NCBI GenBank assembly: GCA_964619365.1 | Contig: CAZUDQ010000002.1 | Coordinates: forward strand, 1 to 64,000 | Direction of reading: 5' to 3' | DNA from: an uncultured archaeon | Lineage (GTDB): Archaea; Altiarchaeota; Altiarchaeia; JAFGQM01 | Length of the DNA: 64,000 nt | Shown here: positions 38,085 to 56,000 of the stretch, piece after piece | Position numbering within the stretch: the first letter of the stretch is position 1 | How the letters are laid out: each line of letters begins with the position of its first letter | Program-made: the position numbers and the translations under genes | Notes under the pieces: model-generated | Database searches by the model: none | The model's input: only the letters and a program-made list of their open reading frames with translations | What the model was told of the DNA's origin: nothing

Positions 38085-39026
38085 TTATTCTTCAAGGGCT
38101 AGTGCCAGCCCTGAGACCTCTTTTAGATCCACAAGCTTCCCTTCAGAAATGATTGGTACTGGGAGTAGTTTGTTTTCAGGAGCTTCCCTTAGACTCACAC
38201 CACGCGGAGTGTCTTTCCAAAGCCTGCGCTCATCAAGTGAGGCAAAGAGTTCTTTTGCTTTTTTAGATTGGCTGCACGCAAGATTCTTTAGCTCAAAGTC
38301 GCCCATCAAAAGGAGCTCATTTAACTCTATTTGACCTTTGAGCTCTGATATGGCCTCAATAAGCATGGCATCGGCGATTTTTACGGTGTGATGGAAGTAG
38401 ACAGCCGAATGCATCTGGCGCCGTCCGACAAGAAGAGCTTCAAGGGCAATCACCCCCTTTTTCTCAAAGGCAATGCCAGCATTATCCAGTCTCATAGCAC
38501 TTATTATCCTGTCAGTATCGATTATCCCGTAAGCAACGCCGGTATAAAGGGCATCGCGTAGGAGGTAATCCATACGGTCGGCATCAATGGATGAGCTTAT
38601 TATTGCGCCTTTGCCTTTCCCTGAAAGGAACGAATCAATCTCATTTAATGAAAATCCTGAATCCTTTATTGCATCACCCAGTTCCCCGTTTAGCAAGAGC
38701 TTTAGATTATCCTCATGGTTGCAGGAAAAAAGGTTTTCAAGGGAATGGCTAAAGGGGAGGTGTCCGGCATCGTGGATTAGAGCCGCCACTCTTGCAGGAG
38801 TCTCTTCAATCCCCACTTGCTCTGCCATTTTCCCAGCAAGGTGCATAGTCCCAAGGGAATGTTCAAATCTCGTGTGATTGGCACCCGGATAGACAAGAGA
38901 ACAGAAGGAAAGCTGCTTTATGCGCCTTAGCCTTTGCATCTGGGGCGTATCGATTATTGCAGTTTCCTCAGGGGACGCTGTGATGTCTTTATGAACTGGA
39001 TCCCTAATAATCTTTGGCCCTTCCAT
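38085..39026 (-). CDS. HD-superfamily phosphohydrolase (COG1078, SAMHD1-like)
   Basis: IRDPVH, QRLRRIKQL, HTRFEHSLG, HDAGHLPFSH, DADRMDYL. Confidence 0.92.
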   Translation of the reverse strand: MEGPKIIRDPVHKDITASPEETAIIDTPQMQRLRRIKQLSFCSLVYPGANHTRFEHSLGTMHLAGKMAEQVGIEETPARVAALIHDAGHLPFSHSLENLFSCNHEDNLKLLLNGELGDAIKDSGFSLNEIDSFLSGKGKGAIISSSIDADRMDYLLRDALYTGVAYGIIDTDRIISAMRLDNAGIAFEKKGVIALEALLVGRRQMHSAVYFHHTVKIADAMLIEAISELKGQIELNELLLMGDFELKNLACSQSKKAKELFASLDERRLWKDTPRGVSLREAPENKLLPVPIISEGKLVDLKEVSGLALALEE

Positions 39027-39067
39027 TTTTATATTATTTTTATTACTGGAAACATAAATAGAAGACT

Positions 39068-39817
39068 ATGGTAAAGCTCACTCGTAAGAAAACTGGTATT
39101 GAAGGCCTCGACATGCTTCTTCCAAAAGGTGTGCCCTCGAATCATCTTATACTTGTTTCTGGACAGGCCGGTGCCGGAAAGTCCATAATGTCTATGCAAT
39201 TCCTTGTGGCAGGAGTTCAGGAACTGGGTGAGAAAGGACTTTTTATAAGTTTTGAGCAAACTCGCGATGATATCGTTGCACAAGCCGAAAACTTTAAATG
39301 GAATATGAACAAGTTAGAAAAAGAAGGCAAGATAAAGATAATGACATTCAATCCCAATAAAGACCATGTTCTAGATATGCTTAAACATATTGACGAAGTC
39401 ATAAAGACTTTTAAACCGGATCGCATAGTCGTTGATTCTATCACCACCTATTCCATATATGCTGAAACCCTGACCTTCTTTGACACCCTGATGAACTATG
39501 GTCTCAAAAAAGAGAACTTACACCTTGCACCCTCGCCAAGATCCGTATCGAGGAAGGCGATAACAGACATCCTCACAAAGATAAAATCCTATAATCTACT
39601 TGCATTTATAATCTCAGAACTCCCTGAAAACTCAGAATATCTCTCCCGCGACACGATTTCAGAGTTTTTTTGTGATGGCGTTATACTCTTAAAACATGTG
39701 CCAATAGGGGACTCTCTTAACCGGAGCATAGAAGTCAGGAAGATGAGGCAGGTGCGGATGCGTGAAGGCTCTCGTTCCTATAACATAACAAAAAAAGGAA
39801 TAGTTATCGAAATATAA
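39068..39817 (+). CDS. KaiC/RAD55-like ATPase (single domain)
   Basis: TGIEGLD, GQAGAGKS, SFEQ, RIVVDSIT, CDGVILL, EVRKMR. Confidence 0.9.
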   Translation: MVKLTRKKTGIEGLDMLLPKGVPSNHLILVSGQAGAGKSIMSMQFLVAGVQELGEKGLFISFEQTRDDIVAQAENFKWNMNKLEKEGKIKIMTFNPNKDHVLDMLKHIDEVIKTFKPDRIVVDSITTYSIYAETLTFFDTLMNYGLKKENLHLAPSPRSVSRKAITDILTKIKSYNLLAFIISELPENSEYLSRDTISEFFCDGVILLKHVPIGDSLNRSIEVRKMRQVRMREGSRSYNITKKGIVIEI

Positions 39818-39818
39818 T

Positions 39819-40946
39819 ATGGATGCCAAAGACAATGTCGTTCGGTTCTACATAAAAAATTATGTTATACCAAGAGCACTCATCTTTGATAAGCCCGGTT
39901 TTGTTGATTTCAGGATATCAGGCAAGACATCAGTATTTGCCCGCCAGATTCTTATGCCCGAAGACCTTTTTGTGGAGTTTGAAAAGTCTATGATTGATAA
40001 GTTCGGAGAGGCTGGCGCCCAGGCGGTTTATTCTGTTGGAAAACGCTTTGGATACAGCTTTGCACAACTGGGTCGTTTTGAGAACATAAAGGAGCACCCT
40101 GGCAACAAAGTCAAGAAATGGATTGGAATTGCCAGTAAATTCGTAGAAGGGACTTATGCAGGCAGGATAGACCAAAAGGTCTCTGTTGAAGAAAAAACAG
40201 TCGATTACAAGCTTAAAAATTTTGTTATCTGCCGGAAACTGGGCTATGATTACCTATTTGCCACAGGGGGAGCGGCAGGGGTGATAGCATGGCTACTTCA
40301 GGATCCGAAGATAGAAGGCTATATGTATAACAGTAAGTCAAAGGGCGAAGAAAATGTTTGCAATGTCTTGTGTGCGACGCCTGCAACAATAAAAAACAAA
40401 TTAAAACAGAACGCATATTCTGAAACAAAAGTAGGGGATTTATACCAAGACCCAATGCAATATGAGGCACTTAACAAAGAAGTCGAGATACAGCAGAAAA
40501 AATCATTCCAGACTTTCTTAGACGCCCGCATATTCAGTTATAAAAAAGGCATAATTTCTCATGATGATGAGCGTTTCTTCCTTCTTGAAGTCACTGGCAT
40601 GTATCTTTTAGAGCTTGCGATGAAAGATGAGAAAATGAAAAAGACTCTATTTGATTCTGCATTTTCCGTCGGGCAAAAAATGTTTGGAGATTCGAACATG
40701 GTGGGCATAACTGAATTTTTGGCTGCCCTTGGATGGGGCGAAGTTACTATAATACCCTCTTCTAATAAAATCAGGGTTGTAATAAAACATTTCCCCTGGA
40801 CAAGATATTACAAAGATGTAGAGTATCTTTTAATAAGAGGTCTCCTTTCAGGAATGCTTTCCCGCATAAAAAAGAAAGACATATTACTCAAAAAACCAAA
40901 AGCTGACCTCAATTCAGGTTTTTTAACACTCTTGTTCGAAAATTAA
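39819..40946 (+). CDS. Tandem V4R-like ligand-binding protein
   Basis: Two related halves: AVYSVGKRFG...GGAAGVIAWLL and GIISHDDERFFLL...LFDSAFSVG...LAALGWGEV...RGLLSGMLS. Confidence 0.65.
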   Translation: MDAKDNVVRFYIKNYVIPRALIFDKPGFVDFRISGKTSVFARQILMPEDLFVEFEKSMIDKFGEAGAQAVYSVGKRFGYSFAQLGRFENIKEHPGNKVKKWIGIASKFVEGTYAGRIDQKVSVEEKTVDYKLKNFVICRKLGYDYLFATGGAAGVIAWLLQDPKIEGYMYNSKSKGEENVCNVLCATPATIKNKLKQNAYSETKVGDLYQDPMQYEALNKEVEIQQKKSFQTFLDARIFSYKKGIISHDDERFFLLEVTGMYLLELAMKDEKMKKTLFDSAFSVGQKMFGDSNMVGITEFLAALGWGEVTIIPSSNKIRVVIKHFPWTRYYKDVEYLLIRGLLSGMLSRIKKKDILLKKPKADLNSGFLTLLFEN

Positions 40947-40966
40947 CCCGTATTAAAGGACAAATA

Positions 40967-41752
40967 ATGATAAGAATCGGCCCAGTCGAAAAGAAAGTCT
41001 ATGAGCTTAGGGCAGACCACCCCGTTGTAATCCCGCAGATAGACCCGAGTAGCCTTGAACTTGATAAAGTCAAATCTTTGCTTAAAGAGATTAAAGCCAT
41101 GGGCATTGATGTAGTTGCAATGGGTGGCAGCATAGTTGATAGGGATTCCTGCAACGAAGTAATTGATGTTGCCGTTAAAGACTTTGACCTTTCAGTTATC
41201 ACTTACCTAACTCAAACAGATCTTGCATCCCTAAATAATTATCCAGGTAAGACTGCAGTGTACTGGATGAGTGTACTGAATTCAGAGAATATGTTTTATC
41301 TAAGGGATGTTCTTGTGATGAGTTCAGTCATGCTTAAGAAAAAAGGTTCAGAAGCAATACCTACAGCATATGTTTTTGACGATCGCGGCCCGCTAAAGAC
41401 AGCAACTTGGCTTTCAAGAGCAACACACGTTCCGCGCGAAAAGCCCACAATAAGTTTATCTCTTGCCGTGCATGCTCAAAACTGCGGATTTAGATTTTAC
41501 ATAATGGCAGGAGGTTCAGGTGCAGAGATTCCACCTCCCGAATCCCACGTAGCTTTATTATCAAAAGAAACTGATTTGTTTATAATGCCTACAAGTGGAA
41601 TCAAAAATGTAAGCCACGCAGAAGATATGTTTAAAGCTAATGCGGATGCCATACACATAGGTAATCTTTTGGAGCAAAAAGATGGTATTGACCATTTGTC
41701 ACAGATAGTCAAAGCCTCAAAGAAATATCCTGGCAAGGACTTCTTGCCATAA
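40967..41752 (+). CDS. Divergent GGGP synthase/PcrB-family TIM-barrel protein
   Basis: PQIDP, DVVAMGGS, MSVLNSEN, IPTAY, VPREKP, GGSGA, SGIK, ADAIHIGN resemble group II GGGPS. Confidence 0.8.
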   Translation: MIRIGPVEKKVYELRADHPVVIPQIDPSSLELDKVKSLLKEIKAMGIDVVAMGGSIVDRDSCNEVIDVAVKDFDLSVITYLTQTDLASLNNYPGKTAVYWMSVLNSENMFYLRDVLVMSSVMLKKKGSEAIPTAYVFDDRGPLKTATWLSRATHVPREKPTISLSLAVHAQNCGFRFYIMAGGSGAEIPPPESHVALLSKETDLFIMPTSGIKNVSHAEDMFKANADAIHIGNLLEQKDGIDHLSQIVKASKKYPGKDFLP

Positions 41753-41781
41753 TCCAAAAACACCCCCCAAAGCAAAATATT

Positions 41782-42507
41782 ATGGCCCACGAAGATAAGG
41801 ACCTAATCGAAAAAATCAAAGAACTGGACTATTTTATCTTTGATTTTGACGGAACATTATACCCCGGTCTTTTATTATCTGAACTCGTCTTTGATTTTTT
41901 AAAAGATTACGGCCTTAAGAATCCTAGCGAACAGTGGCGCTATGACGAGTTGGATTCAATATTCAAAAATCGTGACCTTTATTCTTTTGATGAGTTATGT
42001 AATCGCTCAGCCTTATTGCTTAAAGACGTAGAGCGCGATGAATTACTAAAAAAGCTACCTTTATTCATGGATAAGTGCTATCCCAGTAGTCTTGAACTCA
42101 TAGCCCTCCTTAGACAAATGGGTAAAAAATGTTTTTTAAGCTCCTTAACCATTAAAGAAATTGCATCGGCCGCAAAAGCCAAATATAGCTTTGACGGCTG
42201 TGTTTTTAGGGATTTGGACCAAGTCAAAGTAGATGGCAAAACTCTTTTTACAGGCAAGTACACCAAATCCAATTTGGATTTAGGTAATTATAAGATTGGA
42301 ACAATCGAGGCATTTGGACTCAAGTCCAAGAAATTTCTTATGGCAGGAAATGCTATAGAAGATAAGTGCCTACTCATAGAATCAGAAATCTCTGTAGGGG
42401 TAAATCCTCAAAAAGAACTTAAGGAGGGTATGGTCTTCGATGTCTTTTTAAGTGACCAAAAAGACCCATGGGAAACTCTGGTTGATAATCTTAAAAAAAG
42501 CCTTTAA
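41782..42507 (+). CDS. HAD-IB (SerB-like) phosphatase
   Basis: Motif I FDFDGTL, motif II LSS, FTGK, motif IV variant AGNAIED. Confidence 0.8.
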   Translation: MAHEDKDLIEKIKELDYFIFDFDGTLYPGLLLSELVFDFLKDYGLKNPSEQWRYDELDSIFKNRDLYSFDELCNRSALLLKDVERDELLKKLPLFMDKCYPSSLELIALLRQMGKKCFLSSLTIKEIASAAKAKYSFDGCVFRDLDQVKVDGKTLFTGKYTKSNLDLGNYKIGTIEAFGLKSKKFLMAGNAIEDKCLLIESEISVGVNPQKELKEGMVFDVFLSDQKDPWETLVDNLKKSL

Positions 42508-43223
42508 ATATCTATTACAATACCCTTGCCTTTTTCTATGCGGAAATCAACTGGCTTTAGGTCATGGTCAGTTGCACGCATCTTTGTTATAATAAGTATC
42601 CTCTTATCAAGAGTCTCAATCTTTGAAAGGGCAATTACACCATCAACGACAAATTCTTCAACACCGTGGCGTGAATAGCCTTCTGTCCCAGATACTATTT
42701 CATCAAGAAGGAGTGATGTAAGTTCATTTTCCTGCAAGAGGTAATTAAGTTCGATTATCGCGTTTCTTACTTTGTTCTGGTCAGACTCAAGTAATACGTC
42801 AAGACTTGGAAGTGCGTCAACGACAACACGCTTTGCCCCGATGTTTCTTGCCGTCATAATAAGGTTCTGAACAAGGTGGTTAACATCAAAGTTTTCAGGT
42901 GAAAGAGTGAATTTTTCATCGGATTCAAGACCAAGGCGCACAAGGGAAGCATCGATTATTGCAATCTTGCCCTCTTTTTCAAGCTCAGTTATATCAAGAC
43001 CAAGTTCTTTTAATTCCGCACGGATGTTCTTTGGCTTTTCTTCAAGAGTGAGATATACTCCCGGTTCGCCGTTTTTTGCGCCGTGGATGAGATATGTCAT
43101 TGCAAGAATTGTTTTTCCACATCCACTGCCTCCTGCCAAAAGAACTGTGCGACCTCTGGGAATGCCGCCTTTAAGGAGCGTGTCAAGCTCTGCGATACCA
43201 GTCTCCGCTCGATTAACTGCCAT
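42504..43223 (-). CDS. KaiC/RAD55-like ATPase
   Basis: TGIAELD, GGSGCGKT, TLEE, VVVDAL, VEEFVVDGVI, TKMRAT. Confidence 0.92.
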   Translation of the reverse strand: MAVNRAETGIAELDTLLKGGIPRGRTVLLAGGSGCGKTILAMTYLIHGAKNGEPGVYLTLEEKPKNIRAELKELGLDITELEKEGKIAIIDASLVRLGLESDEKFTLSPENFDVNHLVQNLIMTARNIGAKRVVVDALPSLDVLLESDQNKVRNAIIELNYLLQENELTSLLLDEIVSGTEGYSRHGVEEFVVDGVIALSKIETLDKRILIITKMRATDHDLKPVDFRIEKGKGIVIDI

Positions 43224-44081: not shown

Positions 44082-47000
44082 ATGGTCTCAAAAGTAGCAG
44101 TAGTGTTAAGCTTAGCAGTACTTATTATAGCTTTTGCATTCTCCCTTAGCATCTTAAGTCCATTTGAAGAAAGCTTCAACTCATTACAATCGCCCCAAGG
44201 CCTTGCGATAGGGAATGATGACCTATTCGAGTACTTTATTACACCCCCAGAGGCAAACGATACTGAAAACGAAACTGGTAATGGGGATGGACAAGCAGTA
44301 GAGCCAAAATCCGAGAGCGTTTTCCCGCAAATTGAGTTTGTCCCACCGACACCTGATAACGGAACAACTACAACTGACACAAATGCCAGTATAAACGTAA
44401 GCATTACTGAAGAGAATTTAGCCAATGTCAGCTTTAACTGGAGCGGAAGCGACTATTCCCTATATGATGATTCACTCGTCCTGATGATGAATTTTGACAA
44501 TATCAGCTCATTAGGCGAGAATTCAAGCTATGTTGTTGATATGAGTGAGTATGGCAATAACGGTACTGTCAATGGCTCAACCTGGACTTCAAATGGCAGG
44601 TATGGTGGAGCGTATGAATTTGATGGCAATGGTTATTTTATGAATTCAAGTTATATTGAGATTGCCGATTCAAATAGCTTAGATTTAGGAAATGAAATAA
44701 CAGTTTCTACATGGATTAAATTTTATGATTATAATTTTGGGCCATATATTATAACTAAAAGGGATTCTGGTGCTGCTGTAGATAATCATTATGGAATTTA
44801 TTTAAAAAATGAGACCGAAGGAGAAATGACCCCTAAATTTACATGCGGAAATGGGACTCATAGAAATAGTGTTTCTGCCTCTAATGGAAGATTATCCGAG
44901 TTAAATCATTGGTATCATCTTGTTGGAATAAAGGATGATGAATCAATTAGGATATATGTTGACGGTGAATTTGTTGGTTCCAACACTGAACTAAAAAATA
45001 GAAGTGGGGCTATTGTTGATAATGATACTATGGTTACTGGGTGGTCTAATGATGTTCCATTAAGACTTGGTGCATTATATTATTCAAGTCTTGGGGTAAG
45101 TAGATATGGTTTCAATGGTTCAATTGATGAAGTAAGGATCTATAACCAAAGTCTGTCTGCTAATGAAGTAAGATTATTATATGAGTCAAATCTAAAGAAA
45201 ATGGATCCTGATTCCTGGGAACTTTATGTTAACAAGACAAATTTAACTTCTGGAACATATCATTATGTGGCTACTGCTACTGATTCAAGCGGGAATAGCA
45301 ATAGTACGGAGATGAGGTTGTTGACCATTGATAATGTTGCAGATACTATTGCCCCCAATGTGTCAATTAGTTATCCTGTTGGGTATGGGGCTTATGTTAG
45401 TGTTGCATCATTTAATTATACTTCAAGTGAAGCGGGAAGCTGCTGGTATAGTTTGAATGATAGTTCTAATTCAACAGCAGTTGTTGCTAATAATAGTTTT
45501 GCTGGATTGAATTTAGAGGATGGAGATTATAATCTGACTATTTATTGTAATGATAGTTCTGGTAATGTAGGAAGTAATAATTTGAGTTTTGTTGTTGGAG
45601 ATTATTATGGTGCTGACGAAGTTAATAAGTTGTTGGCGAGTGATATTCAATTAAATGATGCTTTTGGTGCTTCTGTCTCAATTTCAGGAGATTATGCAAT
45701 TATAGGAGCCTCTAATGAAGATGAAGGAGGTAATGGTGCTGGTGCAGCCTATATTTTTAATAAAAATTCTAGTGGGACTTGGAATGAAATTCAAAAAATT
45801 CGTTCAAGTGATAATAAAGGCGGAGATACTTTTGGTACTTCTGTTTCAATTTCAGGAGATTATGCAATAGTTGGAGCATTTTATGAAGATAATTCTACTG
45901 GTTCTGTTTATGTTTTCAAGAAAAATTCTAGTGGATTGTTTGAGGAGGTAAGTGAATTAAGAGCAAGTGATGCACAAGAGGGACCTCGTTTTGGTCATTC
46001 AATTTCTCTTTCTGGTGATTGTGCAATACTTGGAGCCGTTTGGGATGATACTAATGGTAATCGTTCTGGTGCAGCTTATATATTTAAGAAAAATTCTAGT
46101 GGTGGTTTTGAGGAAGTTAATAAAATAATAGCTAGTGATGGACAAGCTTATGATTATTTTAGTAATTCAATTTCTCTTTCTGGTGATTATGCAATAGTTG
46201 GAGCATCTGGGGAAGATGCTAATGGTGCTGGTGCTGGTGCAGCTTATATATTTAAGAAAAATTCCACAGGACAATTTGAAGAAATTCAGAAGATTTTGTC
46301 AAGTGATATTGCAGGTGGTGATGCTTTTGGTAATTCAGTTTCAATTTCAGGAGATTATGCAATAGTAGGGGCTCTTACTGAAGATCCTGAATCACTTTAC
46401 AATGCTGGAGCAGCTTATATTTTTAAGAAGAATTCTAGTGGACAGTTTGAAGAAGTAGATAAAATTCAGGCAAGCGATAAAGAAACGATTGATAATTTTG
46501 GGCGGTCAGTTTCCATTAGTGGAGATTATGCAGTTGTTGGGTCTATTTATGAAGATACTGGTGGAAATAATTCTGGAGCAGCTTATATTTTTAAGAAGAA
46601 TAGTAGTAGTGGATTTGAAGAAATTCATAAAATTACTGCTAGTGATGGACAAGCTCATGATTATTTTAGTAATTCTATTTTTATTTCTGGAGAGTATGCA
46701 ATTGTTGGAGCAAGTAATGAGAATTCTTCTGGTGCTGCTTATATGTTTAGATTGAATGAGAGTGTTGCTGATACAACTGCCCCTTTGATTACATTTATCA
46801 CTGAGAATAATACCCAGATATATGCTTCAAGTATTTTGATTGAAGCTAATGTTACTGATGACAGCCAGACATATACGTTCCTGAATGATTCTTCCCTAGT
46901 TGGTTATTGGACTGCTGAGAATGGTGCTAATGACAGCTCTATATATAATAATAGTGGGAATTTTGTTAATGATACTTCAATCACTTCTTCAGGTAAGTTT

Positions 47001-50000
47001 GGAAGTGCATTCAGTTTTGATGGTAATGGTGATTATATAAATACTTCTATAGAGATTCCAGCCGAGAATTTTTCATTTTCCATGTGGTTCTATATGTTAG
47101 ATAATGCAACATCAAGAAATGCTTCTATTAATTTATTATCATCTGATGGGTTTGTGGTATATCAACATCCTGAAAATGATTTGATTTATTTTTATTCAGT
47201 TGGTGCAAGATATATTATTTGGTATCCAGAAATTAATAAGTGGCATCATTTAGCTTGTTCAATTAATTCTGCAGGGAATGCGATAGATAATTATGATGCT
47301 AATTGTTACGCTGATGGTATTTTAAGAAGCCTTAATCAGGATGGTTATTTAAATTCATCAACATATTTGAAGATTTCTTATTCTAGTGCTGCGAACCATT
47401 CTATTAATGGTTCTGTTGATGAATTTATGATTTTTAATAGGAGTTTGAGTTCAAGTGAGATTAGTGCACTATATAATGCAACTGCACAGAACTTCAATAC
47501 TACTGTTGATTTGGTTGTTGGAAATAATATAATTAATTTGGTTGCAAAAGATACTTATGCTAATGTTGTTAGTGAGCAAGTTGTTGTTGAGCGGACCCCT
47601 ACTGCATCTGAGAATGCGTTTGTTTCAACTTGGAATACTTCAGCTGTTTCAAATGTTTCAAGTAATGCATCACAAGTAATGTTGCCGTTAGAAGCTACGG
47701 GAAATTACGAGTTTACAGTTTATTGGGGAGATGGTACTGATGATTATATAACAACATATAATCAAGCAGAAGTAAATCATACTTATGCAACTGAAGGTCT
47801 TTATAATATCTCAATTGATGGAACAATTGTTGGTTGGAGATTTAATAATGTTGGAGATAAGTTGAAGATAACAGATATTTCCAATTGGGGAAGTTTGAAT
47901 GTGGGAAATAATAATGGTTATTTCTATGGTTGTGCTAATTTGGATGCAAGTGCGATTGATGCTTTGAATTTGAGTGGGACAACGATTTTGACCTCTATGT
48001 TTAGAAATAGTAGTTTTAATGGGAGTATTGGTAATTGGGATACTTCTAGTGTTACAAATACTGACTGGATGTTTTTCTACGCTAGTAATTTTAACCAAAA
48101 CATAAGTGATTGGAATACTTCTAAGGTTACAAATATGTTTTATATGTTGGGTGGTGCAAGTAGTTTTAATCAACCAGTAAATACATGGGATGTTTCTAGT
48201 GTTACTAATATGGGATATATGTTTTCTTATATGGATTCATTTAACCAAGACATAAGCAACTGGGATGTTTCTTCTGTTACTTCCATGTATCGTATGTTTC
48301 TTAATGCTGACAATTTTAATCAACCTTTAGATAATTGGGATACATCTAGTGTTACTGATATGGAAAGGATGTTTCAGAATGCAGATAGTTTCAACCAAGA
48401 TATTGGAAGTTGGGATACATCAAAGGTTACTAATATGAATTCTATGTTCTATGGTGCTTTAAACTTTAATCAGCCATTAAATAATTGGGATACTTCTAGT
48501 GTTACGTCTATGAACTATATGTTTAGAGATGGTAATTTGTTTAATCAAAATATTAGTAATTGGAATGTTTCTAATGTAGAATACATGGATTATATGTTTT
48601 ATTCTTGTCCATCTTTTGATCAAAATATTGGTAGTTGGAATGTTTCTAATGTAATAAATATGGATAATATGTTTAATGGTTCAACTCTATCTACTGAAAA
48701 CTATGATGATTTATTATCTGGTTGGTCAAATTTACATAGTTTGCAAGAAAATATTGAATTTCATGCTGGTAATTCAACTTATACAAATTCCGCAGCTAAG
48801 GCCATATTAATTGATAATTATAATTGGACTATTACTGATGGAGGATATTTGGATATAGTTGTTCCCAATATTACATTTATCACTGAGAATAATACCCAGA
48901 CATCCGCTTCAAGTATTTTGATTGAAGCTAATGTTACTGATGACAGCCAGACATATACGTTCCTGAATGATTCTTCCCTAGTTGGTTATTGGACTGCTGA
49001 GAATGGTGCTAATGACAGCTCTATATACAATAATAATGGAACATTTAATGGTAATGCTTCTGTTACAAGTTCTGGTAAGTTTGGCAGTGCATTTGAGTTT
49101 GATGGTGATGGGGATTACATTGAATCATCTGAAAATGGCTCACTAAATATTGGTAGAGATCAACTTACAATTTCTTCTTGGGTTAAATTAAATAATTTTA
49201 TAGATGGCCGTAGTTTTATTGTTGAAAGGAGATTTGAAACTGCCGACCTATACAGCTTATACGTACAGAATAATTCTGCCATTAGTTTTAATATGGAACG
49301 GGGACCTTCACCAACAGGTATTATTAGTAATCCAGATATTTTTTCACTTAACGAATGGCATCATATTTTAGGAACTTATGATGGCGCATCAATTAAAATT
49401 TATTTAGATGGTAGTCTAATTCAGGAAAATTCATCCTCTGGAAATATTGATAATAGTTCAGGAACTTTCAGAATAGGTACAAATGATGGAGCTAGATTTT
49501 GGAATGGTTCTATCGATGAAGTAATGGTTTTCAATCGTTCGTTATCTTCTTCAGAAGTTAAAGCATTATACAATGCAACTGCACAGGACTTTAATGCTAC
49601 TGTTGATTTGGTTTCCGGTAATAATTCTGTTCAGTTGGTTGCTGTTGATACTGAATATAATGTTGCTAGGGAAAGTATTAATGTTGAGAGAAATGATAGT
49701 ACTGCTCCTTCAATTACATTTATAACAGCTAATAATACCCAGACATCCGCTTCAAGTATTTTGATTGAAGCTAATGTTACTGATGACAGCCAGACATATA
49801 CGTTCCTGAATGATTCTTCATTAGTTGCTTATTGGACTGCTGAGAATGGTGCTAATGACAGCTCTATATATAATAATAGTGGAACATTTAATGGTAATGC
49901 TTCTGTTACAAGTTCTGGCAAGTTTGGAAGTGCATTTGAGTTTGATGGTGATGGGGATTATGTGGATGTTGGAAATTCACAAACATTAAATCAAGCGACT

Positions 50001-53000
50001 CTTTCCTTATGGTTTTATAGAAATTCAAGTAAAGATAATTTTCAAATGATGTATACTGGCTATTCCCTTTCAGAGTTAGAATTATCTTTCTATATAGATA
50101 CTCTAAGAGCTTATGTGAATAATAGTTATGTTTTCTATAATAATGCTTATTCATTAAATACTTGGTTTCATGCAGTTTTAACTTTTAATTCAACTAATCA
50201 AACACTTTATGTAAATGGTGTTCCAGTTGCAAGCAGAATTCCAATTGGAGTTGTGTCTGCATCTGCCAAAACTATTGGTGGAAGGAAATGGAATTATTCC
50301 TTTAATGGTTCTATTGATGAGGTTATGATTTTTAATAGGAGTTTGAGTGCTAATGAAGTTAGTGCTTTGTATAATGCAACTGCTCAAAACTTCAATACTA
50401 CTGTTGATTTGGTTTATGGTGATAATGCTGTTCAGTTAGTTGCTGTTGATACTGAGTATAATGTTGCCAGAGAAAGTATCAATATTGATAGGATAGTATA
50501 TAATATCACAAATTGTGTTGAGTTGCAGGCAATGGGTTATAATTTGTCAGGAAATTATGTGTTGGCGAATAATATTGATTGTTCTGATACTGCTAATTGG
50601 AATAGTGGTGCTGGTTTTGATCCAATCGGTGATTCGTCAAATTATTTTACAGGTGGTCTTGATGGACAAGGATATAATATAAGTTATCTTTACATAAATC
50701 GTTCTGATGTGGGTTATGGAGGACTTTTTGGATATGTTAGTTCTGGTGAGATAAATAATTTAGGTTTGATTTCGGTTAATGTTACAGGGTTTAATCAGAC
50801 AGGTGCTTTTGCTGGCTGGTTCGGGGGCTCAGTAATAAATAATTCTTATGTTACTGGGAGTGTTTTTGGAGGGGTAACTGCTGTTGGTGGATTTTTTGGA
50901 ATAATACATAGTTCAACAATTTTAAATTCTTATTCAATAGTTGATGTAAGTGGTGTTCATGATCATATAGGAGGTCTTGCAGGACAAATGATTGGTTCAG
51001 TTGTTAATAATTCTTATGTGAATGGAAACATAAAGGGGAGTAGTACATATATTGGTGGAATTGGAGGTAGTTTATGGGATGCAACAATTTCAAATTCCTA
51101 TTTTGTCGGAAATGTTACTGGAACCAATTTAGTGGGTGGTATAGTTGGGGGAATGATTGGCATTGGTAGTTCAACCAAGAACTGTTATTCTACTGGCAAT
51201 ATAACTGTTACTGGTGGAAGTGGAGTTGGAGCTATTACGGGATACTTGAATGGTGCAGGAGAGACTATCATAAATTCATACTGGTTGAATAATACTGGAG
51301 ATGATGTAGTTTCTTGTTATCCTGGAGGGAATGAGAATTGTACTGCGGTGACAAGTGAAATTTATTTCTTTTCGGTTTCGAATTCTCCTATTTCAGCATG
51401 GCAGTTCCCGCCGTGGGATTCTTTTTGTGATGGAGTAGGATACCAACCATTGGCATGGCAAAATATATCAACTGAGACAGAATGTTTGGGATATTCTACA
51501 ATAACACCACAGATTAGTTTTGTGAACCCTACTCCCGATAATGGAACAAATACTACTAATAATTCTGTTGAGATTAATGTTTCCATTACTGAAGAGAATT
51601 TAGCCAATGTCAGCTTCGACTGGGCACTAGGTCCAAGAGATGGACTTGTTCTTGATTTGAATTTTGATGATGGGAGTTTGGTTGATGAATCAGGGCAGGG
51701 GAATGATGGAGTAAATAATGGTTCTATCTATACTCCAGATGGAAAGATTATGGGTGCTAGAGAATTTGATGGTGAAAATGATTATGTTAATGCTGGAAAT
51801 GATACATCTTTAGATATAAGAGATCAAATAACTTTAGGAGCTTGGATTAAGTTAAATGAATTAACTAATAATTCAGCCGTAAACATTATTTTAAATAAAG
51901 ATTGGGCTGATTATGAAATTGGAATTGCAGCTAATTCTACTGGAGTATCAGTTTATAACTTTGCGTGGTATTTAGGTGGTGTTTCATCTGGATGGCATGA
52001 TGGTGGAGGACCAATTAATATAAATGAATGGACCTCTGTTATGTTAACGTATAATGGTGAACAAGTTAGAACTTATATTAATGGAGTATTAACTAATAGC
52101 TATGAATATAATGGAAGTATTTATTATCCTGGACTTGATTGTGATTTGAAGATAGGAGCAAGATCACGGCCAGACTCCTGTGAGGAGAGTGGAAGTTATT
52201 TCAACGGTTCTATTGATGAAGTAAAAGTATATAATCGGTCGTTAAGTTCTACTGAGATTACTGAGTTGTATCATTCTAGTAGGGCTAAATTTATGGATGA
52301 TAGTTTAGTTTTGATGATGAATTTTGACAATATCAGCTCATTAGGCGAGAATTCAAGCTATGTTGTTGACATGAGTGAGTACGGGAATGATGGCGTCGTT
52401 AATGGTTCTACTTGGACCCCAAATGGTAATTATGGCGGAGCTTATGAGTTTGATGGAGAGAATGATTATATTAACCTGACATCGGCTGTCTTGGAAACAA
52501 CTAATGATTCTCATGAGATTACTTTGCTTGCATGGATAAAACCTAATGATTATGGTGATCCTGATTCAAATCAAAGCTATATTATTAGCCAATATATATA
52601 TCCTAATAGTGACAGATTCTTATGGGGATTCGATGGTAAGAAGATAAGATATTTTGTTGGAGGAAATCAGAGTTTAGGAAATACGAATATTACATTAGGA
52701 GTTTGGCAGATGATTGCTTCAACTAAGTTATCTAATGGTACAGTCAAGCATTATTATAATGGAATATATGATGGTAAAGGTGTTGTGCAAGGAAAGTATC
52801 AAGATACAGAGACAATCATAGGTGGTGGACATGTATACGCTGGTGTTTATGCATTCAATGGTTTAATTGATGAACCAAGGATTTATAATAGAAGTCTTAG
52901 CGCAAATGAAATTCAGTTATTATACGAGTCAAATCTAAAGAAAATTGATCCTGATTCCTGGGAACTTTATGTTAATAAGACTAATTTAACCGTTGGAGAC

Positions 53001-56000
53001 TATTCTTATTCTGCAAGCGCATGTGATTCGAGCGATAATTGCAACTCAACTGAAACAAGATACCTAACTATTGAATCAGAATACGCACCTACATTCCAAG
53101 GCAATCTTGACTTAAATAACGACGGATATCTGGACATAGTTTTCTCTAACTGGAGAAATGAAACGTCTTACAACATCAATAGTACCATATACTATGGTAG
53201 CGCAACTGGATTTAGGATAAATGATACTGGTGAACTTCCTACAATGGGGGCAGTTGGTAATTCCATTGCCGACTTAAATAACGACGGATACTTAGACATA
53301 GTTTTCTCTAACTGGAAAAATGATAGCACCTATAACATAAACAGCACCATCTATTACGGAACCGTTGCAGGATTTGATGCCGATAACAAGGCTGAACTGC
53401 CCACTCACGGCGCACAAGGGAACTCCATTGCCGACCTGAACAATGATGGTTATTTAGACGTAGTTTTCTCTAATTATTTCAATGGGGTATCTTACGACAT
53501 CAACAGCACCATCTATTATGGGAGCGCAACAGGATTTGGTACCAACAACACCAAGGGCCTGCCAACAAACCACGCAATAGGAAATTCCATTGCCGACCTG
53601 AATAACGACGGATACTTTGACATAGTGTTTTCCAACTCTGGCGAGTCAAGTGTTATATATTACGGAAGCGCAACAGGATTTGATGCTGATAATAAAACAG
53701 AGTTATTAACCCATGCCGCGACTGGAAATTCCATTGCCGACCTAGATAATGACGGGTACCTGGATATTGTGTTTTCCAATAATGGCGAAGGTGGGGACCG
53801 CAACATCAACAGTACGATCTACTACGGAAGCGCTGCAGGATTTGATGCCAACAATACGAAAGGATTACTAACACACGGAGCATATACAAATTCCATTGCC
53901 GACTTAAATAACGACGGATACCTAGATATCATATTCTCAAATTATCATAATAACACAGGTCGCAACATCAACAGTACGGTGTATTATGGGGGTGTTAGCG
54001 GGTTTAACATTAACAACAAAACAGAGTTACCAACACACGGAGCAAATGGCAATTCTGTTGCTGACCTAAACAACGACGGATACTTAGACATAGTGTTTTC
54101 CAACACATATAACGATACTGATTTTAACATCAACAGCACCATCTATTACGGAAGTGTAACAGGATTTAACACCAACAATACTGGGGGCTTACCTACAATA
54201 GGTGCTTCGGGGGTTTCAGTTGTCGTCGGACAAGTAGCTTCAGCAAATACGGCATATGGGACGACGCTTGGCGCAACGCTGATTCCTGATTTTAGGTTGG
54301 CAAAGAACTCCAGTTTAAGCGATTTTATTGACCTTGACATATTCTTCAACGATAAGAATGGGGACGAACTTACGATTTTGGCATACAAAGATGGCGCACT
54401 TTACTCTGACTCAAGCGTGCAGCTGCTTATCGATAATACAACACACAAATTAAGTATAATCCCTGCCACAGATTATGCTGGGACAATAACTGGCATCTAT
54501 TTTGTCGCAAGCGATGGGCAGTACAATGTCAGCAGTAACAATGTAAGTGTGATTGTGCTAGGTAATGACACCCAGGCGCCACAAATCGACTTCGTCCCGC
54601 CGACGCCCGATAACGGGACTGTCACAGCAAATACCTCAGTACTGATAAACGTCAGCATCAACGATACAGGCCTTGCAAACGTCACATTTGACTGGAACGA
54701 CAGCGAAGAAGTCTGTTCAATATACTCCCAGGACATAAGCAATTACTCTTGCACCGATTATCATGACTCTTCTTTGGTTCTTGCTATGAACTTTGATAAT
54801 TCAAGTGACCTAACGGATTTATCGGGTCATGGAAATGACGGAATCAATAACGGAGCTACATGGACTCCTGATGGGAAGTATGGCGGAGCAAGAAGCTTTG
54901 ATGGGTTAAATGATTCCGTCTACATCGATTCTTTTGACATTGGAAATTCAATTGGAAAAACAAGTTGTGCATGGATATATCCATTATCTTTTAGAGTAAA
55001 TAGTCTAATCGGAATCATAGCAGGGCCAAGCAGTTATACTGTTAATGTCCCCTGGATGAGATTATATAATGGTTACATGTTTAATAGAATTTGGAATAGT
55101 ACTCATGCGTTTAGCAAGGAATACTCATCTATAGAAGCTCTGAAACTTAATTCTTGGTCGCATCTTTGTGTGGTTTGGCAAGGCAATGGTCCAAATCAAA
55201 ATTTAAGTATGCTTTATTACATCAATGGAGGTCTTGATAAGAACATTACTTCAAACATAAAAGATACGGATGGATATGTCGGAATGGCTTATGGGGATGT
55301 CAGAATAGGTTCTGATCCCGTATATGCTTCGAGATTTTTCAATGGTTCTATCGATGAGATTAGAATTTACAACAGGATGTTATCCTCTGATGAAATTAAC
55401 TTATTATATGAATCCAGGTTAGTAAAGTATTCTGATTGGAACCTTCTAGTAAATAAAACTAATTTATCGGTTGGCAACTATACTTATTCTGCAAGCGCTT
55501 GCGACATTTATAATAATTGCAATTCTACGGGAATTAATACTCTTGAAATAATTTCTACAAGCTTCACAGCAGGTTTTAGCGTGACCCCTTCAAGCATCTC
55601 GGAAACAGGAACTGCAATATGGAATTTAACGCTAAACAATCTTGAGACATCAAACCTCACTGTGGAAATCTCACCCTCTTGGACATCAGCATATAATACG
55701 ACTGTAAGCGTTCTTTCAAACTACTCGCGTGCGTGGAGCCAGGGCGTTTCCTGCCCGACAACATCAGTCACAAGAAGCGTCACTTTGACCGAGGGTAGCT
55801 CGTCAAAACAAAAATCAGCGATAGTATCAGTCTCCTGCCCCTCATCAACTTGCTCAAAAGACTGGTCATGCGGAGAATGGAGCGAATGTGTTGATGGGGC
55901 ACAGACGCGTGACTGTTCTTGCGCGTGCCCAAAAGACTCACAGTGCAATGGCGACCACGCAACAGAACAAGAATGCGACGCGTGCGAGGGTGTGACCTGC

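What the first reader, a model, noticed from the sequence alone, without database searches (positions are those of the whole stretch)
39068..42507. Candidate lipid/small-molecule signalling operon: KaiC-like ATPase + tandem V4R protein + GGGPS-like barrel + HAD phosphatase
Seen: four co-oriented genes with gaps of 1, 20 and 29 bp. Established: archaeal KaiC/RAD55 ATPases are proposed signalling hubs often encoded beside V4R ligand-binding proteins; GGGPS/PcrB enzymes prenylate glycerol-1-phosphate, and the Bacillus PcrB product is dephosphorylated afterwards. Inference: the barrel and HAD make or process a prenyl-glycerol-type molecule that the double V4R protein binds and relays to the KaiC ATPase, a synthase-plus-receptor layout like quorum or host sensing. 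I do not know of this four-gene combination being described.
Basis: partly seen in the sequence, partly recalled or inferred. Interest (0 to 1): 0.82.

Follow-up and report, generated by a model that had tools for sequence, protein, structure and literature searches.

The report
KaiC, double-V4R, altered prenyltransferase operon
A small salt-lake archaeon carries a tightly packed, widely conserved four-gene set that joins a KaiC-type ATPase and a two-part ligand-binding protein to a remodelled copy of the first enzyme of archaeal membrane-lipid synthesis and a phosphatase, which points to an undescribed prenyl-lipid pathway that is sensed or handled by the ATPase pair.

Summary
Four co-oriented ORFs lie at 39068-42507 with gaps of 1, 20 and 29 bp: a KaiC-like ATPase, a 375-aa protein with two V4R-like modules, a GGGPS/PcrB-family barrel and a HAD hydrolase.

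The layout recurs:
- In 21 of 21 genome loci whose V4R protein is at least 46% identical, the barrel follows directly, and KaiC precedes in 20 of 21.
- Searching from the barrel gives the converse: 18 of 19 metagenome loci with upstream DNA have the V4R gene in front.

The barrel is an extra, remodelled paralogue. A canonical GGGPS lies elsewhere in all 8 genomes checked. The acidic residue found in 19 of 19 canonical sequences is Ala or Gly in 96 of 96 subfamily members.

In 19 of 23 loci with more distant V4R homologues, a UbiA-type or UbiA-like membrane prenyltransferase takes the barrel's place, often with GGR-like reductases or methyltransferases. KaiC plus double-V4R is therefore generally tied to prenyl transfer.

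The signalling reading (synthase plus receptor) is possible but not shown. A carrier or scaffold role for the V4R protein fits equally well. I rate it a new variant of known kinds, of moderately high interest.

The parts
39027..39067 (+). 41-nt A/T-rich divergent intergenic region between the HD-domain gene (- strand) and KaiC1. It holds a TATA-like TTTATATT about 33-40 nt before the ATG and is the likely promoter of the operon.
   Evidence: Sequence read. The promoter role is inferred and not tested.
39068..39817 (+). KaiC1: single-domain KaiC/RecA-superfamily ATPase, 249 aa, with Walker A GQAGAGKS, Walker B D123 and the Glu of the SFEQ motif.
   Evidence: PF06745 at E 1.7e-53. In the alignment of 19 cluster KaiCs, G35/G37/K38 are nearly invariant and D123 is invariant. 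KaiC lies directly upstream of the V4R gene in 20 of 21 barrel loci.
39819..40946 (+). V4R2: 375-aa protein of two V4R/XylR_N-like sensor modules. Module 1 spans about residues 1-195 and has a C138/E166/C181/C185 metal-site pattern. Module 2 spans about residues 215-375 and has no Cys cluster.
   Evidence: No Pfam hit for the protein itself. Family profile against the MopR sensor domain gives E 2.9e-5: residues 148-194 match MopR 157-202 and residues 220-290 match MopR 11-84. The Atlas model has V4R clusters among its neighbours. 231 representative clusters match at E<=1e-3.
40967..41752 (+). GGGPS-like TIM barrel, 261 aa, a divergent paralogue derived from group II-type enzymes. It keeps D26, GGS55, Y135, G183-S184-G185, G211 and G232. 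It lacks the canonical acidic residue (A181) and has new invariant residues Q24, D138, R140, H194 and S210.
   Evidence: PF01884 at 61.4 bits, below the NCBIfam GGGPS cut-offs. All 7 PDB hits are GGGPS; the best four chains (89.3-83 bits) share a hexameric entry and differ by single residues from 4mm1, which PMC9385802 gives as Methanothermobacter GGGPS. Column counts for 96 subfamily and 19 canonical sequences are. It is 30% identical to the genome's canonical copy.
41782..42507 (+). HAD-superfamily hydrolase, 241 aa, closest to HAD-IB (C1-cap, SerB-like). Motif I is FDFDGT, the motif II Ser and motif III Lys are present, and motif IV reads GNAIED.
   Evidence: PF00702 at 24.5 bits (cut-off 26.4) and TIGR01490 at 21.5 bits. 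Alignment of 17 cluster HADs is. Better-scoring orthologues reach TIGR01490 at 113.6 bits, above the 98.3 cut-off.
42504..43223 (-). KaiC2: second single-domain KaiC-like ATPase, 239 aa, convergent with the HAD gene and overlapping it by 4 nt. It is a probable accessory member.
   Evidence: PF06745 at E 5.9e-66. A convergent KaiC lies right after the HAD in L031, L041, L096 and L101, and a second tandem KaiC lies upstream in L027, L028, L033, L082 and L095. The G001 orthologue is 76% identical and in the same position.

Best explanation
The four genes, probably with the convergent second KaiC, form one conserved operon found patchily in DPANN archaea. It is a specialised prenyl-lipid branch pathway joined to a KaiC ATPase / double-V4R pair.

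Proposed working:
1. The barrel is a neofunctionalised paralogue of geranylgeranylglyceryl-phosphate synthase. It still binds a prenyl diphosphate through Mg2+ (D26 kept) and a phosphorylated acceptor (phosphate-binding loops kept). It holds or activates the acceptor differently from glycerol-1-phosphate: the canonical acid is lost, and D138, R140, Q24 and H194 are new and invariant.
2. The HAD-IB enzyme removes the phosphate from the prenylated product, so the product leaves the CDP-activated membrane-phospholipid route.
3. In some lineages a GGR-like flavoenzyme saturates the chain.
4. The double-V4R protein binds the hydrophobic substrate or product of the neighbouring prenyltransferase and works in complex with the KaiC ATPase. 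It acts either as a carrier or scaffold for the enzyme or as the ligand sensor of the ATPase.

Shown here: gene order, family assignments, the strict two-way co-occurrence, the altered active-site pattern, the extra canonical GGGPS, and the replacement of the barrel by UbiA-type enzymes beside more distant V4R homologues. Inferred: catalytic activity, the nature of the acceptor, ligand binding by V4R, and the KaiC-V4R contact.
For: Operon: gaps of 1, 20 and 29 nt. Start and stop codons overlap in many orthologous loci.

Co-occurrence:
- 21 of 21 genome loci with V4R2 at >=46% identity have the barrel next. None of the 23 loci with a full or near-full homologue at <=39% identity has it (a 24th, L071, holds only a short fragment and was not classed).
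- The barrel-linked V4R2 proteins form one clade of 22 rows with 100/100 support.
- In the barrel-first scan, 18 of 19 loci with upstream DNA have V4R2 directly upstream.
- In the phylum of G061, 11 of 215 genomes have the barrel.
- Among 41 relatives, only the 3 genomes with the close V4R2 carry a second, barrel-type copy.

HAD: a HAD lies within two genes of the barrel in 17 of 17 genome loci with enough flank. HAD and/or a GGR-like gene lies downstream in 18 of 19 metagenome loci with at least 300 bp downstream.

The barrel as an extra, altered enzyme:
- A canonical GGGPS is present in 8 of 8 genomes checked. The genome's own canonical copy passes the NCBIfam cut-offs (290>247).
- The subfamily is sharply separated: 102 clusters score 208-431 bits and the next hit scores 135.
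- The acid column is D10/E9 in 19 canonical sequences and A85/G11 in 96 subfamily sequences, while D26 is kept in 96 of 96.
- The review PMC9385802 (passages read) calls the Tyr/Tyr/Glu triad strictly conserved for G1P specificity and catalysis, and the Asp the essential Mg2+/diphosphate ligand.

Prenyl donor: the genome has a polyprenyl synthase, a UbiA enzyme, a G1PDH-like gene and GGR-family genes.

Prenyl theme beyond this clade: 19 of 23 non-barrel loci have a UbiA-family gene (16 loci) or a UbiA-like TM gene (3 loci) within 3 kb, often abutting V4R2. GGR-like genes are in 6 of 23 and SAM methyltransferases in 6 of 23.

V4R as binder of hydrophobic or small ligands: the match to the MopR phenol sensor, and BchJ discussed as a carrier, scaffold or chaperone of pigment enzymes (PMC4432870, passages).
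Against: - No structure, no complex prediction and no expression data could be obtained, so ligand binding and KaiC-V4R contact rest on gene order alone.
- Loss of the catalytic acid could mean that the barrel is not an enzyme at all.
- The window's HAD scores below the Pfam and NCBIfam cut-offs, and the first Asp of its motif IV is Asn.
- One barrel locus (L095) has wHTH genes in place of a HAD, and one (L097) has a HAD fragment upstream of the barrel instead of V4R2.
- An internal repeat in V4R2 is not detectable by profile comparison (hhalign probability 0.8%, E 0.07). The two-module reading rests on the two MopR stretches and the Atlas neighbours.
- No fused KaiC-V4R or V4R-barrel protein was found (weak evidence).
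- Many loci come from related MAGs, and some metagenome loci duplicate genome loci, so the counts are not independent events.
Confidence: 0.55

Rival explanations
1. Barrel plus HAD make a diffusible prenyl-glycerol-type signal, the double-V4R protein is its receptor, and it switches the KaiC ATPase. This would be a synthase-plus-receptor pair used for population or host sensing.
For: It rests on the same synteny evidence as above. V4R domains act as small-molecule sensors in MopR. A 2026 preprint predicts systems in which an enzyme-made ligand binds a V4R domain that is coupled to a P-loop NTPase or an effector (10.64898/2026.10.19.760177, passages). KaiC-like ATPases are cited as proposed archaeal signalling hubs (PMC5847659, passages). 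Dephosphorylation by the HAD would give a neutral lipid that could cross membranes (inference). The hosts are DPANN archaea, many of which live on other cells (background knowledge).
Against: No output component such as a transcription factor or kinase target is conserved in the window. A wHTH family flanks many other loci but was not found in this window or genome. V4R2 is often translationally coupled to the prenyltransferase itself, including membrane UbiA enzymes, which suits an enzyme partner at least as well as a receptor. Nothing shows export or diffusion of the product.
Confidence: 0.2
2. Ordinary membrane-lipid synthesis. The barrel is simply a second GGGPS isozyme, for example for another chain length as proposed for haloarchaeal IaH2 paralogues, and KaiC/V4R2 only regulate it.
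For: The barrel passes the Pfam PcrB cut-off. Databases name subfamily members phosphoglycerol geranylgeranyltransferase. The review mentions paralogous GGGPS in haloarchaea that may differ in chain length. The own genome's canonical copy itself has Asp, not Glu, at the acid position and Leu at the Tyr position, so the triad is not absolutely fixed.
Against: None of 96 subfamily members has any acidic residue in that column, against 19 of 19 canonical sequences. The barrel is below all NCBIfam GGGPS cut-offs. Many other pocket positions are remodelled and newly invariant. A phosphatase directly downstream would remove the phosphate that CDP-archaeol synthesis needs. The subfamily is strictly confined to the KaiC-V4R2 context.
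Confidence: 0.1
3. The barrel is a catalytically dead pseudoenzyme that only binds a prenyl or phosphorylated ligand. It would serve as a second sensor or adaptor in a KaiC-centred regulatory complex.
For: The acid regarded as catalytic is lost in 96 of 96 members. The barrel sits in the same position that unrelated UbiA enzymes take in other clades. The aromatic residue aligned with the Methanothermobacter W141 position (named a hexamer anchor from recall; the review names no residue number) is kept as W148 in 96 of 96.
Against: The Mg2+/diphosphate Asp (D26), Ser55, Tyr135 and the phosphate-binding glycines are invariant, and new polar residues (D138, R140, H194, Q24) are invariant too. That pattern is typical of a changed active site, not a decayed one. 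HAD and GGR-like enzymes downstream imply a product to act on.
Confidence: 0.1
4. An anti-virus or conflict system that uses a KaiC NTPase and a V4R sensor.
For: The distribution is patchy across DPANN phyla: 3 of 61 and 11 of 215 genomes. V4R-NTPase conflict systems have been predicted.
Against: PADLOC gives only P-loop-level noise, with E values of 2e-4 to 1.5e-3 and no system match. There is no nuclease, TIR, pore or other effector. The neighbours are lipid-pathway paralogues.
Confidence: 0.03

Closest known systems
Group II geranylgeranylglyceryl phosphate synthase (Methanothermobacter MtGGGPS, PDB 4MM1; Thermoplasma 6JO3)
   Same: TIM-barrel family. All 7 PDB hits are GGGPS; 4mm1 scores 88.5 bits over residues 8-249. 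D26 (Mg2+/diphosphate), GGS55, Y135, the phosphate-binding GSG, G211 and G232, and W148 at the position aligned with Mt W141 (hexamer anchor by recall) are kept.
   Different: The acidic residue that polarises the G1P hydroxyl (E in Mt, D in many DPANN copies) is Ala or Gly in 96 of 96. The FPG motif of strand 3 is replaced by Y(L/I)(T/S) plus a 4-residue insertion. D138, R140, Q24 and H194 are new and invariant. The GGG of strand 7 becomes TSG. There is a conserved SKKYPGK tail. The protein is below the NCBIfam cut-offs. It is always a second copy.
Bacillus PcrB (heptaprenylglyceryl phosphate synthase), whose product is later dephosphorylated
   Same: A soluble GGGPS-family enzyme whose product is not a membrane phospholipid and loses its phosphate. 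The enzyme family and HepGP formation are in PMC9385802. The dephosphorylation step is recalled from Guldan et al. 2011 and was not read here.
   Different: PcrB keeps the G1P pocket. No PcrB chain appeared among the PDB hits at E<=1e-3. PcrB has no KaiC or V4R partner.
MoeO5 (moenomycin pathway; farnesyl transfer to 3-phosphoglycerate)
   Same: It is a precedent for a GGGPS-fold enzyme that uses another phosphorylated three-carbon acceptor (PMC9385802).
   Different: No detectable sequence match was found here. Its residues could not be compared.
MopR/PoxR/XylR-type sensor domain (XylR_N + V4R, zinc-bound Cys/Glu cluster)
   Same: The family profile matches MopR at E 2.9e-5. Module 1 carries the C...E...C...C pattern: C138 in 93 of 107, E166 in 99 of 107, C172 in 88 of 107 and C181 in 94 of 107.
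   Different: V4R2 has two modules in one chain and no AAA+ or DNA-binding output. In the barrel clade the Cys at position 172 is replaced by one at 185. The window protein itself fails the Pfam V4R model.
BchJ, a V4R protein of bacteriochlorophyll synthesis
   Same: BchJ is a stand-alone V4R-type protein that assists enzymes acting on a hydrophobic pigment. It is discussed as a substrate carrier, scaffold or chaperone (PMC4432870). The UbiA-type neighbours of V4R2 homologues score best, below cut-off, to chlorophyll synthase ChlG/BchG, and GGR-like genes accompany them. That BchJ is a V4R member and lies near bchG and bchP is recalled, not checked.
   Different: BchJ has a single module, no KaiC partner and a different pathway. 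DPANN archaea are not known to make chlorophylls.
Archaeal single-domain KaiC-like ATPases (proposed signalling hubs; ArlH)
   Same: PF06745, a single RecA-like domain with Walker A and B motifs. The gene sits next to a small-molecule-binding partner.
   Different: It is not the double-domain clock protein and is below all NCBIfam KaiC and ArlH cut-offs. In the papers searched I found no description of a link to prenyltransferases.

Membership tests
KaiC family (PF06745), single-domain archaeal type | Pfam score above the gathering cut-off | tested here: met
   181.8 bits against 26.6 (KaiC1) and 222.6 bits (KaiC2)
KaiC family (PF06745), single-domain archaeal type | Walker A GxxGxGK[ST], Walker B Asp and catalytic Glu | tested here: met
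   GQAGAGKS is present. G35, G37 and K38 are nearly invariant and D123 is invariant. E in SFEQ is present, though Asp replaces it in 5 of 19 cluster KaiCs.
Circadian KaiC (double domain, about 500 aa) | Two tandem RecA-like domains and a score above the equivalog cut-off | tested here: not met
   The protein is 249 aa. NF006799 scores 128 against 408 and TIGR02655 scores 99.3 against 546.
V4R domain (PF02830) / XylR_N-V4R sensor fold | Pfam V4R match of the protein itself | tested here: not met
   No V4R hit up to E 10; only XylR_N at E 0.18
V4R domain (PF02830) / XylR_N-V4R sensor fold | Family-level homology to a solved V4R sensor | tested here: met
   Profile A2 against MopR gives E 2.9e-5 in two stretches. 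5 of 41 members hit V4R, best E 1.4e-5.
V4R domain (PF02830) / XylR_N-V4R sensor fold | Cys/Glu/Cys/Cys metal-site pattern | tested here: met
   Module 1 has C138, E166, C181 and C185 in the window protein. Module 2 has no Cys cluster.
V4R domain (PF02830) / XylR_N-V4R sensor fold | Fold, and two tandem copies of it | tested here: inconclusive
   The Atlas model (pTM 0.85) has V4R clusters at TM 0.57 (whole protein) and 0.37/0.47 (residues 12-190). hhalign of the N half against the C half is not significant.
GGGPS/PcrB family (PF01884) | Pfam score above the cut-off and TIM-barrel homology to solved GGGPS | tested here: met
   61.4 bits against 23.9. All 7 PDB hits are GGGPS.
Geranylgeranylglyceryl phosphate synthase (functional equivalog) | NCBIfam equivalog or subfamily cut-offs | tested here: not met
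   143.5<247, 96.6<161.55, 88.3<113.25. The genome's other copy passes.
Geranylgeranylglyceryl phosphate synthase (functional equivalog) | Conserved acidic residue of the Tyr/Tyr/Glu triad that acts on G1P | tested here: not met
   The column is Ala 85 / Gly 11 of 96 in the subfamily and Asp 10 / Glu 9 of 19 in canonical sequences. The role of the residue is taken from PMC9385802.
Geranylgeranylglyceryl phosphate synthase (functional equivalog) | Asp ligand for the Mg2+-diphosphate of the prenyl donor, and the standard phosphate-binding motif | tested here: met
   D26 in 96 of 96; G183-S184-G185, G211 and G232 are conserved
Geranylgeranylglyceryl phosphate synthase (functional equivalog) | Enzyme activity with GGPP and G1P | not testable with these tools
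   Needs a biochemical assay
HAD superfamily phosphatase (subfamily IB) | Model scores above the cut-offs | tested here: not met
   PF00702 24.5<26.4, PF12710 18.9<27, TIGR01490 21.5<98.3 for the window protein. The orthologue in L033 passes with 113.6>98.3.
HAD superfamily phosphatase (subfamily IB) | Catalytic motifs I-IV | tested here: met
   Motif I DxDGT is invariant in 17 of 17, and the motif II Ser and motif III Lys columns are kept. Motif IV is GNAIED in the window: the last Asp is conserved and the first position is Asn in 6 of the 17 aligned sequences.

The most novel reading that the evidence does not exclude
KaiC plus double-V4R is an archaeal lipid-signal system. A dedicated, remodelled prenyltransferase with its phosphatase (and a reductase in some lineages) makes a small neutral isoprenoid ether. 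The double-V4R protein senses it and gates the KaiC ATPase. This would be the first defined input ligand for an archaeal KaiC hub and an autoinducer-like synthase/receptor pair in DPANN archaea, possibly used in contact with hosts.
Probability: 0.15. Interest if true: 0.9.

Novelty: new variant of a known kind. Interest (0 to 1): 0.66.

Why it matters
Archaeal KaiC-like ATPases are widespread, but their inputs are essentially unknown. V4R proteins are common in archaea with no assigned ligands. GGGPS is treated as a single-function marker of archaeal membrane synthesis.

This cluster ties the three together. It defines a GGGPS subfamily of about 100 sequence clusters that databases label as ordinary GGGPS, although it lacks the acid used on glycerol-1-phosphate. 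It also shows that a 375-aa double-V4R family, with 231 representative clusters, is almost always encoded with a KaiC ATPase and a prenyltransferase of one of two unrelated folds.

That gives a concrete and cheap experimental entry: four small soluble proteins, commercially available prenyl diphosphates, and LC-MS. It bears on the ligand of a V4R protein, the control of a KaiC hub and a new isoprenoid product. It also warns against counting these barrels as evidence of lipid autonomy in DPANN genome surveys.

Tried and rejected
At the tool was not ready. I retried, after more than twenty other calls as its message allowed, and it was then switched off. No fold search could follow. I used the ESM Atlas's own model and profile searches instead.
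- Complex prediction for KaiC1 plus V4R2 was unavailable. Nothing was folded.
- The internal repeat test of V4R2 (N half against C half, hhalign) gave probability 0.8% and E 0.07, so no support.
- Fused forms of V4R2 at 680-2000 aa: none were found among 8000 candidates, which is weak evidence.
- HAD against solved structures gave only marginal matches to the HAD domain of copper ATPases (E 0.0055), which is uninformative.
- PADLOC defence models gave only P-loop-level hits and a dGTPase-like hit for the neighbouring HD gene. The defence reading was rejected.
- Sequencing runs: no RNA holder is listed. Six DNA runs labelled salt lake metagenome hold the stretch or part of it.
- Literature:
  - Makarova et al. 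2017 (mBio, KaiC hubs) is not held. Its text and supplementary neighbourhood tables may already list a KaiC-V4R pairing, and I could not see them.
  - Searches for KaiC+V4R+archaea (3 papers, none on this pairing), V4R+prenyltransferase (1 unrelated paper), V4R domain+archaea+lipid and DPANN+GGGPS+paralog (PMC6431249 passages) found no description of this cluster or of this GGGPS subfamily.
  - Supplementary files of papers were closed and were not consulted.
- The first try of the metagenome scan failed because the machine was busy. I repeated it, as the message allowed.
- A recurrent wHTH family flanking many loci was considered as the output regulator. It was not found in the window (tblastn) or in the own genome (the genome is 85% complete).

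Full report
**Observation.** One search lists four + strand ORFs at 39068-39817 (249 aa), 39819-40946 (375 aa), 40967-41752 (261 aa) and 41782-42507 (241 aa). A fifth ORF, a second KaiC-like gene at 42504-43223 on the - strand, converges on the last gene and overlaps it by 4 nt. Upstream, a divergent HD-domain gene ends 41 nt before the first ATG. That spacer is A/T-rich and has a TATA-like element (the promoter role is inferred).

The genome is 1.21 Mb in 17 contigs and 85% complete. Close homologues carry DPANN labels: Altiarchaeota, Iainarchaeota/Diapherotrites, Micrarchaeota and Nanohalarchaeota MAGs. The DNA is held by runs labelled salt lake metagenome.

**Family assignments.**
- ORF1 is a single-domain KaiC-family ATPase (PF06745, E 1.7e-53). 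Walker A, Walker B and the Glu after strand 2 are conserved among 19 cluster orthologues.
- ORF3 belongs to the PcrB/GGGPS family (61.4 bits, cut-off 23.9), but it fails every NCBIfam GGGPS model.
- ORF4 is a weak HAD, just under the Pfam cut-off. Its motif I DxDGT is invariant in 17 of 17 cluster HADs, and the motif II Ser, the motif III Lys and the last acidic residue of motif IV are conserved. Better-scoring orthologues pass the HAD-IB model TIGR01490.
- ORF2 has no Pfam hit of its own.

**ORF2 as a double-V4R protein (V4R2).** Its family is large and uniform. 231 representative clusters match at E<=1e-3, and nearly all are about 375 aa. Some JGI records name it 'predicted hydrocarbon binding protein'. 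Of 41 members, 5 hit V4R, 13 hit XylR_N and 7 hit DUF2507.

A profile of 107 members matches the MopR phenol-sensor domain at E 2.9e-5 in two stretches. The end of the N half (residues 148-194) aligns with the Cys-rich end of the MopR domain (157-202). The start of the C half (220-290) aligns with the start of the MopR domain (11-84). This is what two consecutive sensor modules would give.

The C...E...C...C pattern is conserved in module 1. In the barrel-linked clade, the Cys at position 172 is replaced by one at 185.

The ESM Atlas holds this exact protein (pTM 0.85). Its structural neighbours include clusters in which 86-100% of members carry V4R.

A direct N-half against C-half profile comparison is not significant. 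I could not make my own model. 'Tandem V4R' is therefore well supported but not proven.

**The layout is conserved.** A scan of one genome per species with the V4R2 profile gave 45 loci.
- In all 21 loci with V4R2 at >=46% identity, the barrel follows directly. In L036 a GGR-like gene sits in between. KaiC precedes directly in 20 of 21.
- A HAD lies within two genes of the barrel in 17 of 17 loci whose contig continues far enough. By blast it is the window's type in 11. It is a clearer HAD-IB in 5, and in 3 of those it lies behind a GGR-like gene. It is a HAD-IA type in 1.
- None of the 23 classed loci with V4R2 at <=39% identity has the barrel. L071 holds only a short fragment.
- On a maximum-likelihood tree, the 22 barrel-linked V4R2 proteins form one clade with 100/100 support, nested among the others.

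The converse was tested from the barrel side.
- A metagenome scan with barrel-specific motifs gave 24 loci. 18 of the 19 with upstream DNA have V4R2 directly upstream; L097 has a HAD fragment instead. 18 of the 19 with at least 300 bp downstream have a HAD and/or a GGR-like gene; L095 has wHTH genes instead.
- In the phylum of G061, 11 of 215 genomes carry the barrel.
- In the window's own phylum, 3 of 61 genomes carry it. These are the same 3 of 41 relatives that have the close V4R2.

The cluster is therefore rare, patchy across DPANN phyla, and inherited or transferred as a unit. Related MAGs and duplicate records mean that these counts are not independent events.

**The barrel is an extra, remodelled paralogue.**
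- The genome has a second family member on contig 3 that is 30% identical. It passes the GGGPS models: NF003198 at 290>247 and TIGR01769 at 203>161.55. The same holds in G001 and G016 and in 5 of 5 other cluster-bearing genomes, so 8 of 8 in total.
- The genome also has a polyprenyl synthase, one UbiA enzyme, a G1PDH-like gene and GGR-family genes. The standard lipid route and a prenyl donor are accounted for.
- With the subfamily profile, 102 sequence clusters score 208-431 bits and the next hit scores 135.

I aligned 96 subfamily and 19 canonical sequences.
- Kept: the Asp that binds the Mg2+-diphosphate (D26, 96 of 96), GGS55, Y135, the phosphate-binding G183-S184-G185, G211, G232 and E236.
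- Lost: the acidic residue two places before the GSG loop, which is Asp or Glu in 19 of 19 canonical sequences and Ala (85) or Gly (11) in the subfamily.
- New and invariant in the subfamily: Q24, Y80, W100, D114, D138, R140, H194, T209-S210 and H230.
- A 4-residue insertion follows strand 3, and an SKKYPGK tail is conserved.

The review PMC9385802 (passages read) describes the Tyr/Tyr/Glu triad as strictly conserved and responsible for G1P stereospecificity and catalysis, and the Asp as the essential Mg2+/diphosphate ligand. Its residue numbers for the Methanothermobacter enzyme do not match my count from the chain alignment, so I rely on the motif and not on the numbers.

My reading is that the donor chemistry is retained and the acceptor site is changed. 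All PDB hits are GGGPS chains that the review assigns to group II. W148 aligns with the Methanothermobacter W141 position, which I recall as the hexamer anchor.

The 23 loci with more distant V4R2 homologues (L048-L070) lack the barrel.
- 16 of them have a UbiA-family membrane prenyltransferase within 3 kb, often abutting V4R2. 3 more have a related multi-pass protein.
- Pfam confirmed UbiA in 4 of the 5 membrane proteins tested. The fifth type matches the UbiA-like set by hhalign (probability 73%, E 3.1e-5) across the second Asp-rich motif.
- Their best NCBIfam matches, all below cut-off, are chlorophyll synthase ChlG/BchG, generic prenyltransferases and DGGGP synthase.
- GGR-like flavoproteins occur in 6 of 23 and SAM methyltransferases in 6 of 23.
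- GGR-like genes also occur in 7 of 21 barrel loci and in 9 of 24 metagenome loci. One scores 128 bits to the geranylgeranyl reductase family model, below its cut-off of 158.8.
- KaiC genes are present in 20 of these 23 loci.

The stable core is therefore KaiC plus double-V4R plus a prenyltransferase. In one clade, a soluble GGGPS-derived barrel with a phosphatase took the place of the membrane enzyme. All the partners are paralogues of archaeal ether-lipid enzymes (GGGPS, DGGGPS-like and GGR).

**Mechanism.** The most economical reading has four steps.
1. The barrel transfers a prenyl group to a phosphorylated acceptor.
2. The HAD removes the phosphate, so the product cannot enter CDP-activated phospholipid synthesis.
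3. A reductase saturates the chain in some lineages.
4. V4R2 binds the hydrophobic substrate or product and acts together with the KaiC ATPase.

Two versions of step 4 cannot be separated with the present data. In one, V4R2 is a carrier or scaffold for the enzyme. BchJ is discussed in that way (PMC4432870), and the frequent start/stop overlap of V4R2 with the prenyltransferase gene fits it. In the other, V4R2 is a receptor that gates KaiC. It has a recent predicted parallel in systems where an enzyme-made ligand binds a V4R domain coupled to an NTPase.

I put about 0.55 on the general statement. Within it I lean slightly towards the carrier or partner version over the diffusible-signal version (0.2 as a stand-alone rival). 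Other rivals are an ordinary second GGGPS (0.1), a dead barrel acting as a binder (0.1) and a defence system (0.03; PADLOC found nothing).

**Comparison with what is known, and novelty.** The components belong to known superfamilies. The barrel fails the functional definition of GGGPS, and the window's V4R2 fails the Pfam V4R model. In the library searched I found no paper that links V4R proteins with prenyltransferases, or that describes this GGGPS subfamily or this gene set. The key KaiC-hub paper and all supplements were out of reach, so a KaiC-V4R pairing may already be tabulated there. I class the finding as a new variant of known kinds. It consists of a new, sharply defined GGGPS-derived subfamily and a new conserved association of KaiC and double-V4R with a prenyltransferase.

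**Limits.** There is no structure, no complex prediction, no expression data and no biochemistry. All functional statements beyond family membership, residue patterns and gene order are inferences.

Noticed in passing
window 44082-56909 (+): A giant 4275-aa ORF with an N-terminal hydrophobic segment and a C-terminal TM segment. It has 7 Laminin_G_3 stretches, 7 FG-GAP_2 stretches, DUF285 repeats and Cys-rich repeats near the C terminus, and looks like a surface adhesin. GC drops to 0.32-0.38 and GC skew rises across it.
   Followed up: partly
window 42504-43223 (-): The second KaiC-like gene (KaiC2) converges on the HAD gene with a 4-nt overlap. Its orthologue in G002 (67% identity) precedes a V4R2 paralogue without a barrel. 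A second KaiC, either tandem upstream or convergent downstream, accompanies about ten other clusters.
   Followed up: partly
L033:9704-10618, L047:4861-5694, L083:7719-10248, L092/L093, L096, L104 and others: A family of about 275-aa proteins with an N-terminal winged-helix region (weak FUR-like Pfam hit) flanks many barrel clusters in 1-4 tandem copies. It was not found in the window or in the own genome. It might be a lineage-specific output regulator.
   Followed up: partly
L050:64-615, 608-1177, 4611-5240; L070:3171-3878: Short proteins of about 185-235 aa, with N-termini that look like single V4R modules, sit beside extra KaiC genes in some non-barrel loci. This was judged by eye only and no family search was run.
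   Followed up: no
window 38085-39026 (-): A divergent upstream gene encodes an HD + HD_assoc_2 phosphohydrolase with weak dGTPase-like hits. Orthologues lie near KaiC2 orthologues in G001 and G002. This is probably local synteny and not part of the cluster.
   Followed up: no
G000 contig 3, 46104-46859 (L001:1432-2208): The genome's canonical GGGPS has Asp, not Glu, at the catalytic acid position and Leu in place of the neighbouring Tyr ('FVLTDAGS'). About half of the 19 canonical sequences aligned show the same T-D form. The 'strictly conserved' Tyr/Glu of the literature is therefore not universal.
   Followed up: partly
L057 (contig labelled Spirochaetes bacterium) and L066 (labelled bacterium): Two V4R2-KaiC-UbiA loci sit on contigs of MAGs labelled bacterial. 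On the tree, L057 groups with Aenigmatarchaeota sequences. This may be mis-binning or gene transfer.
   Followed up: no
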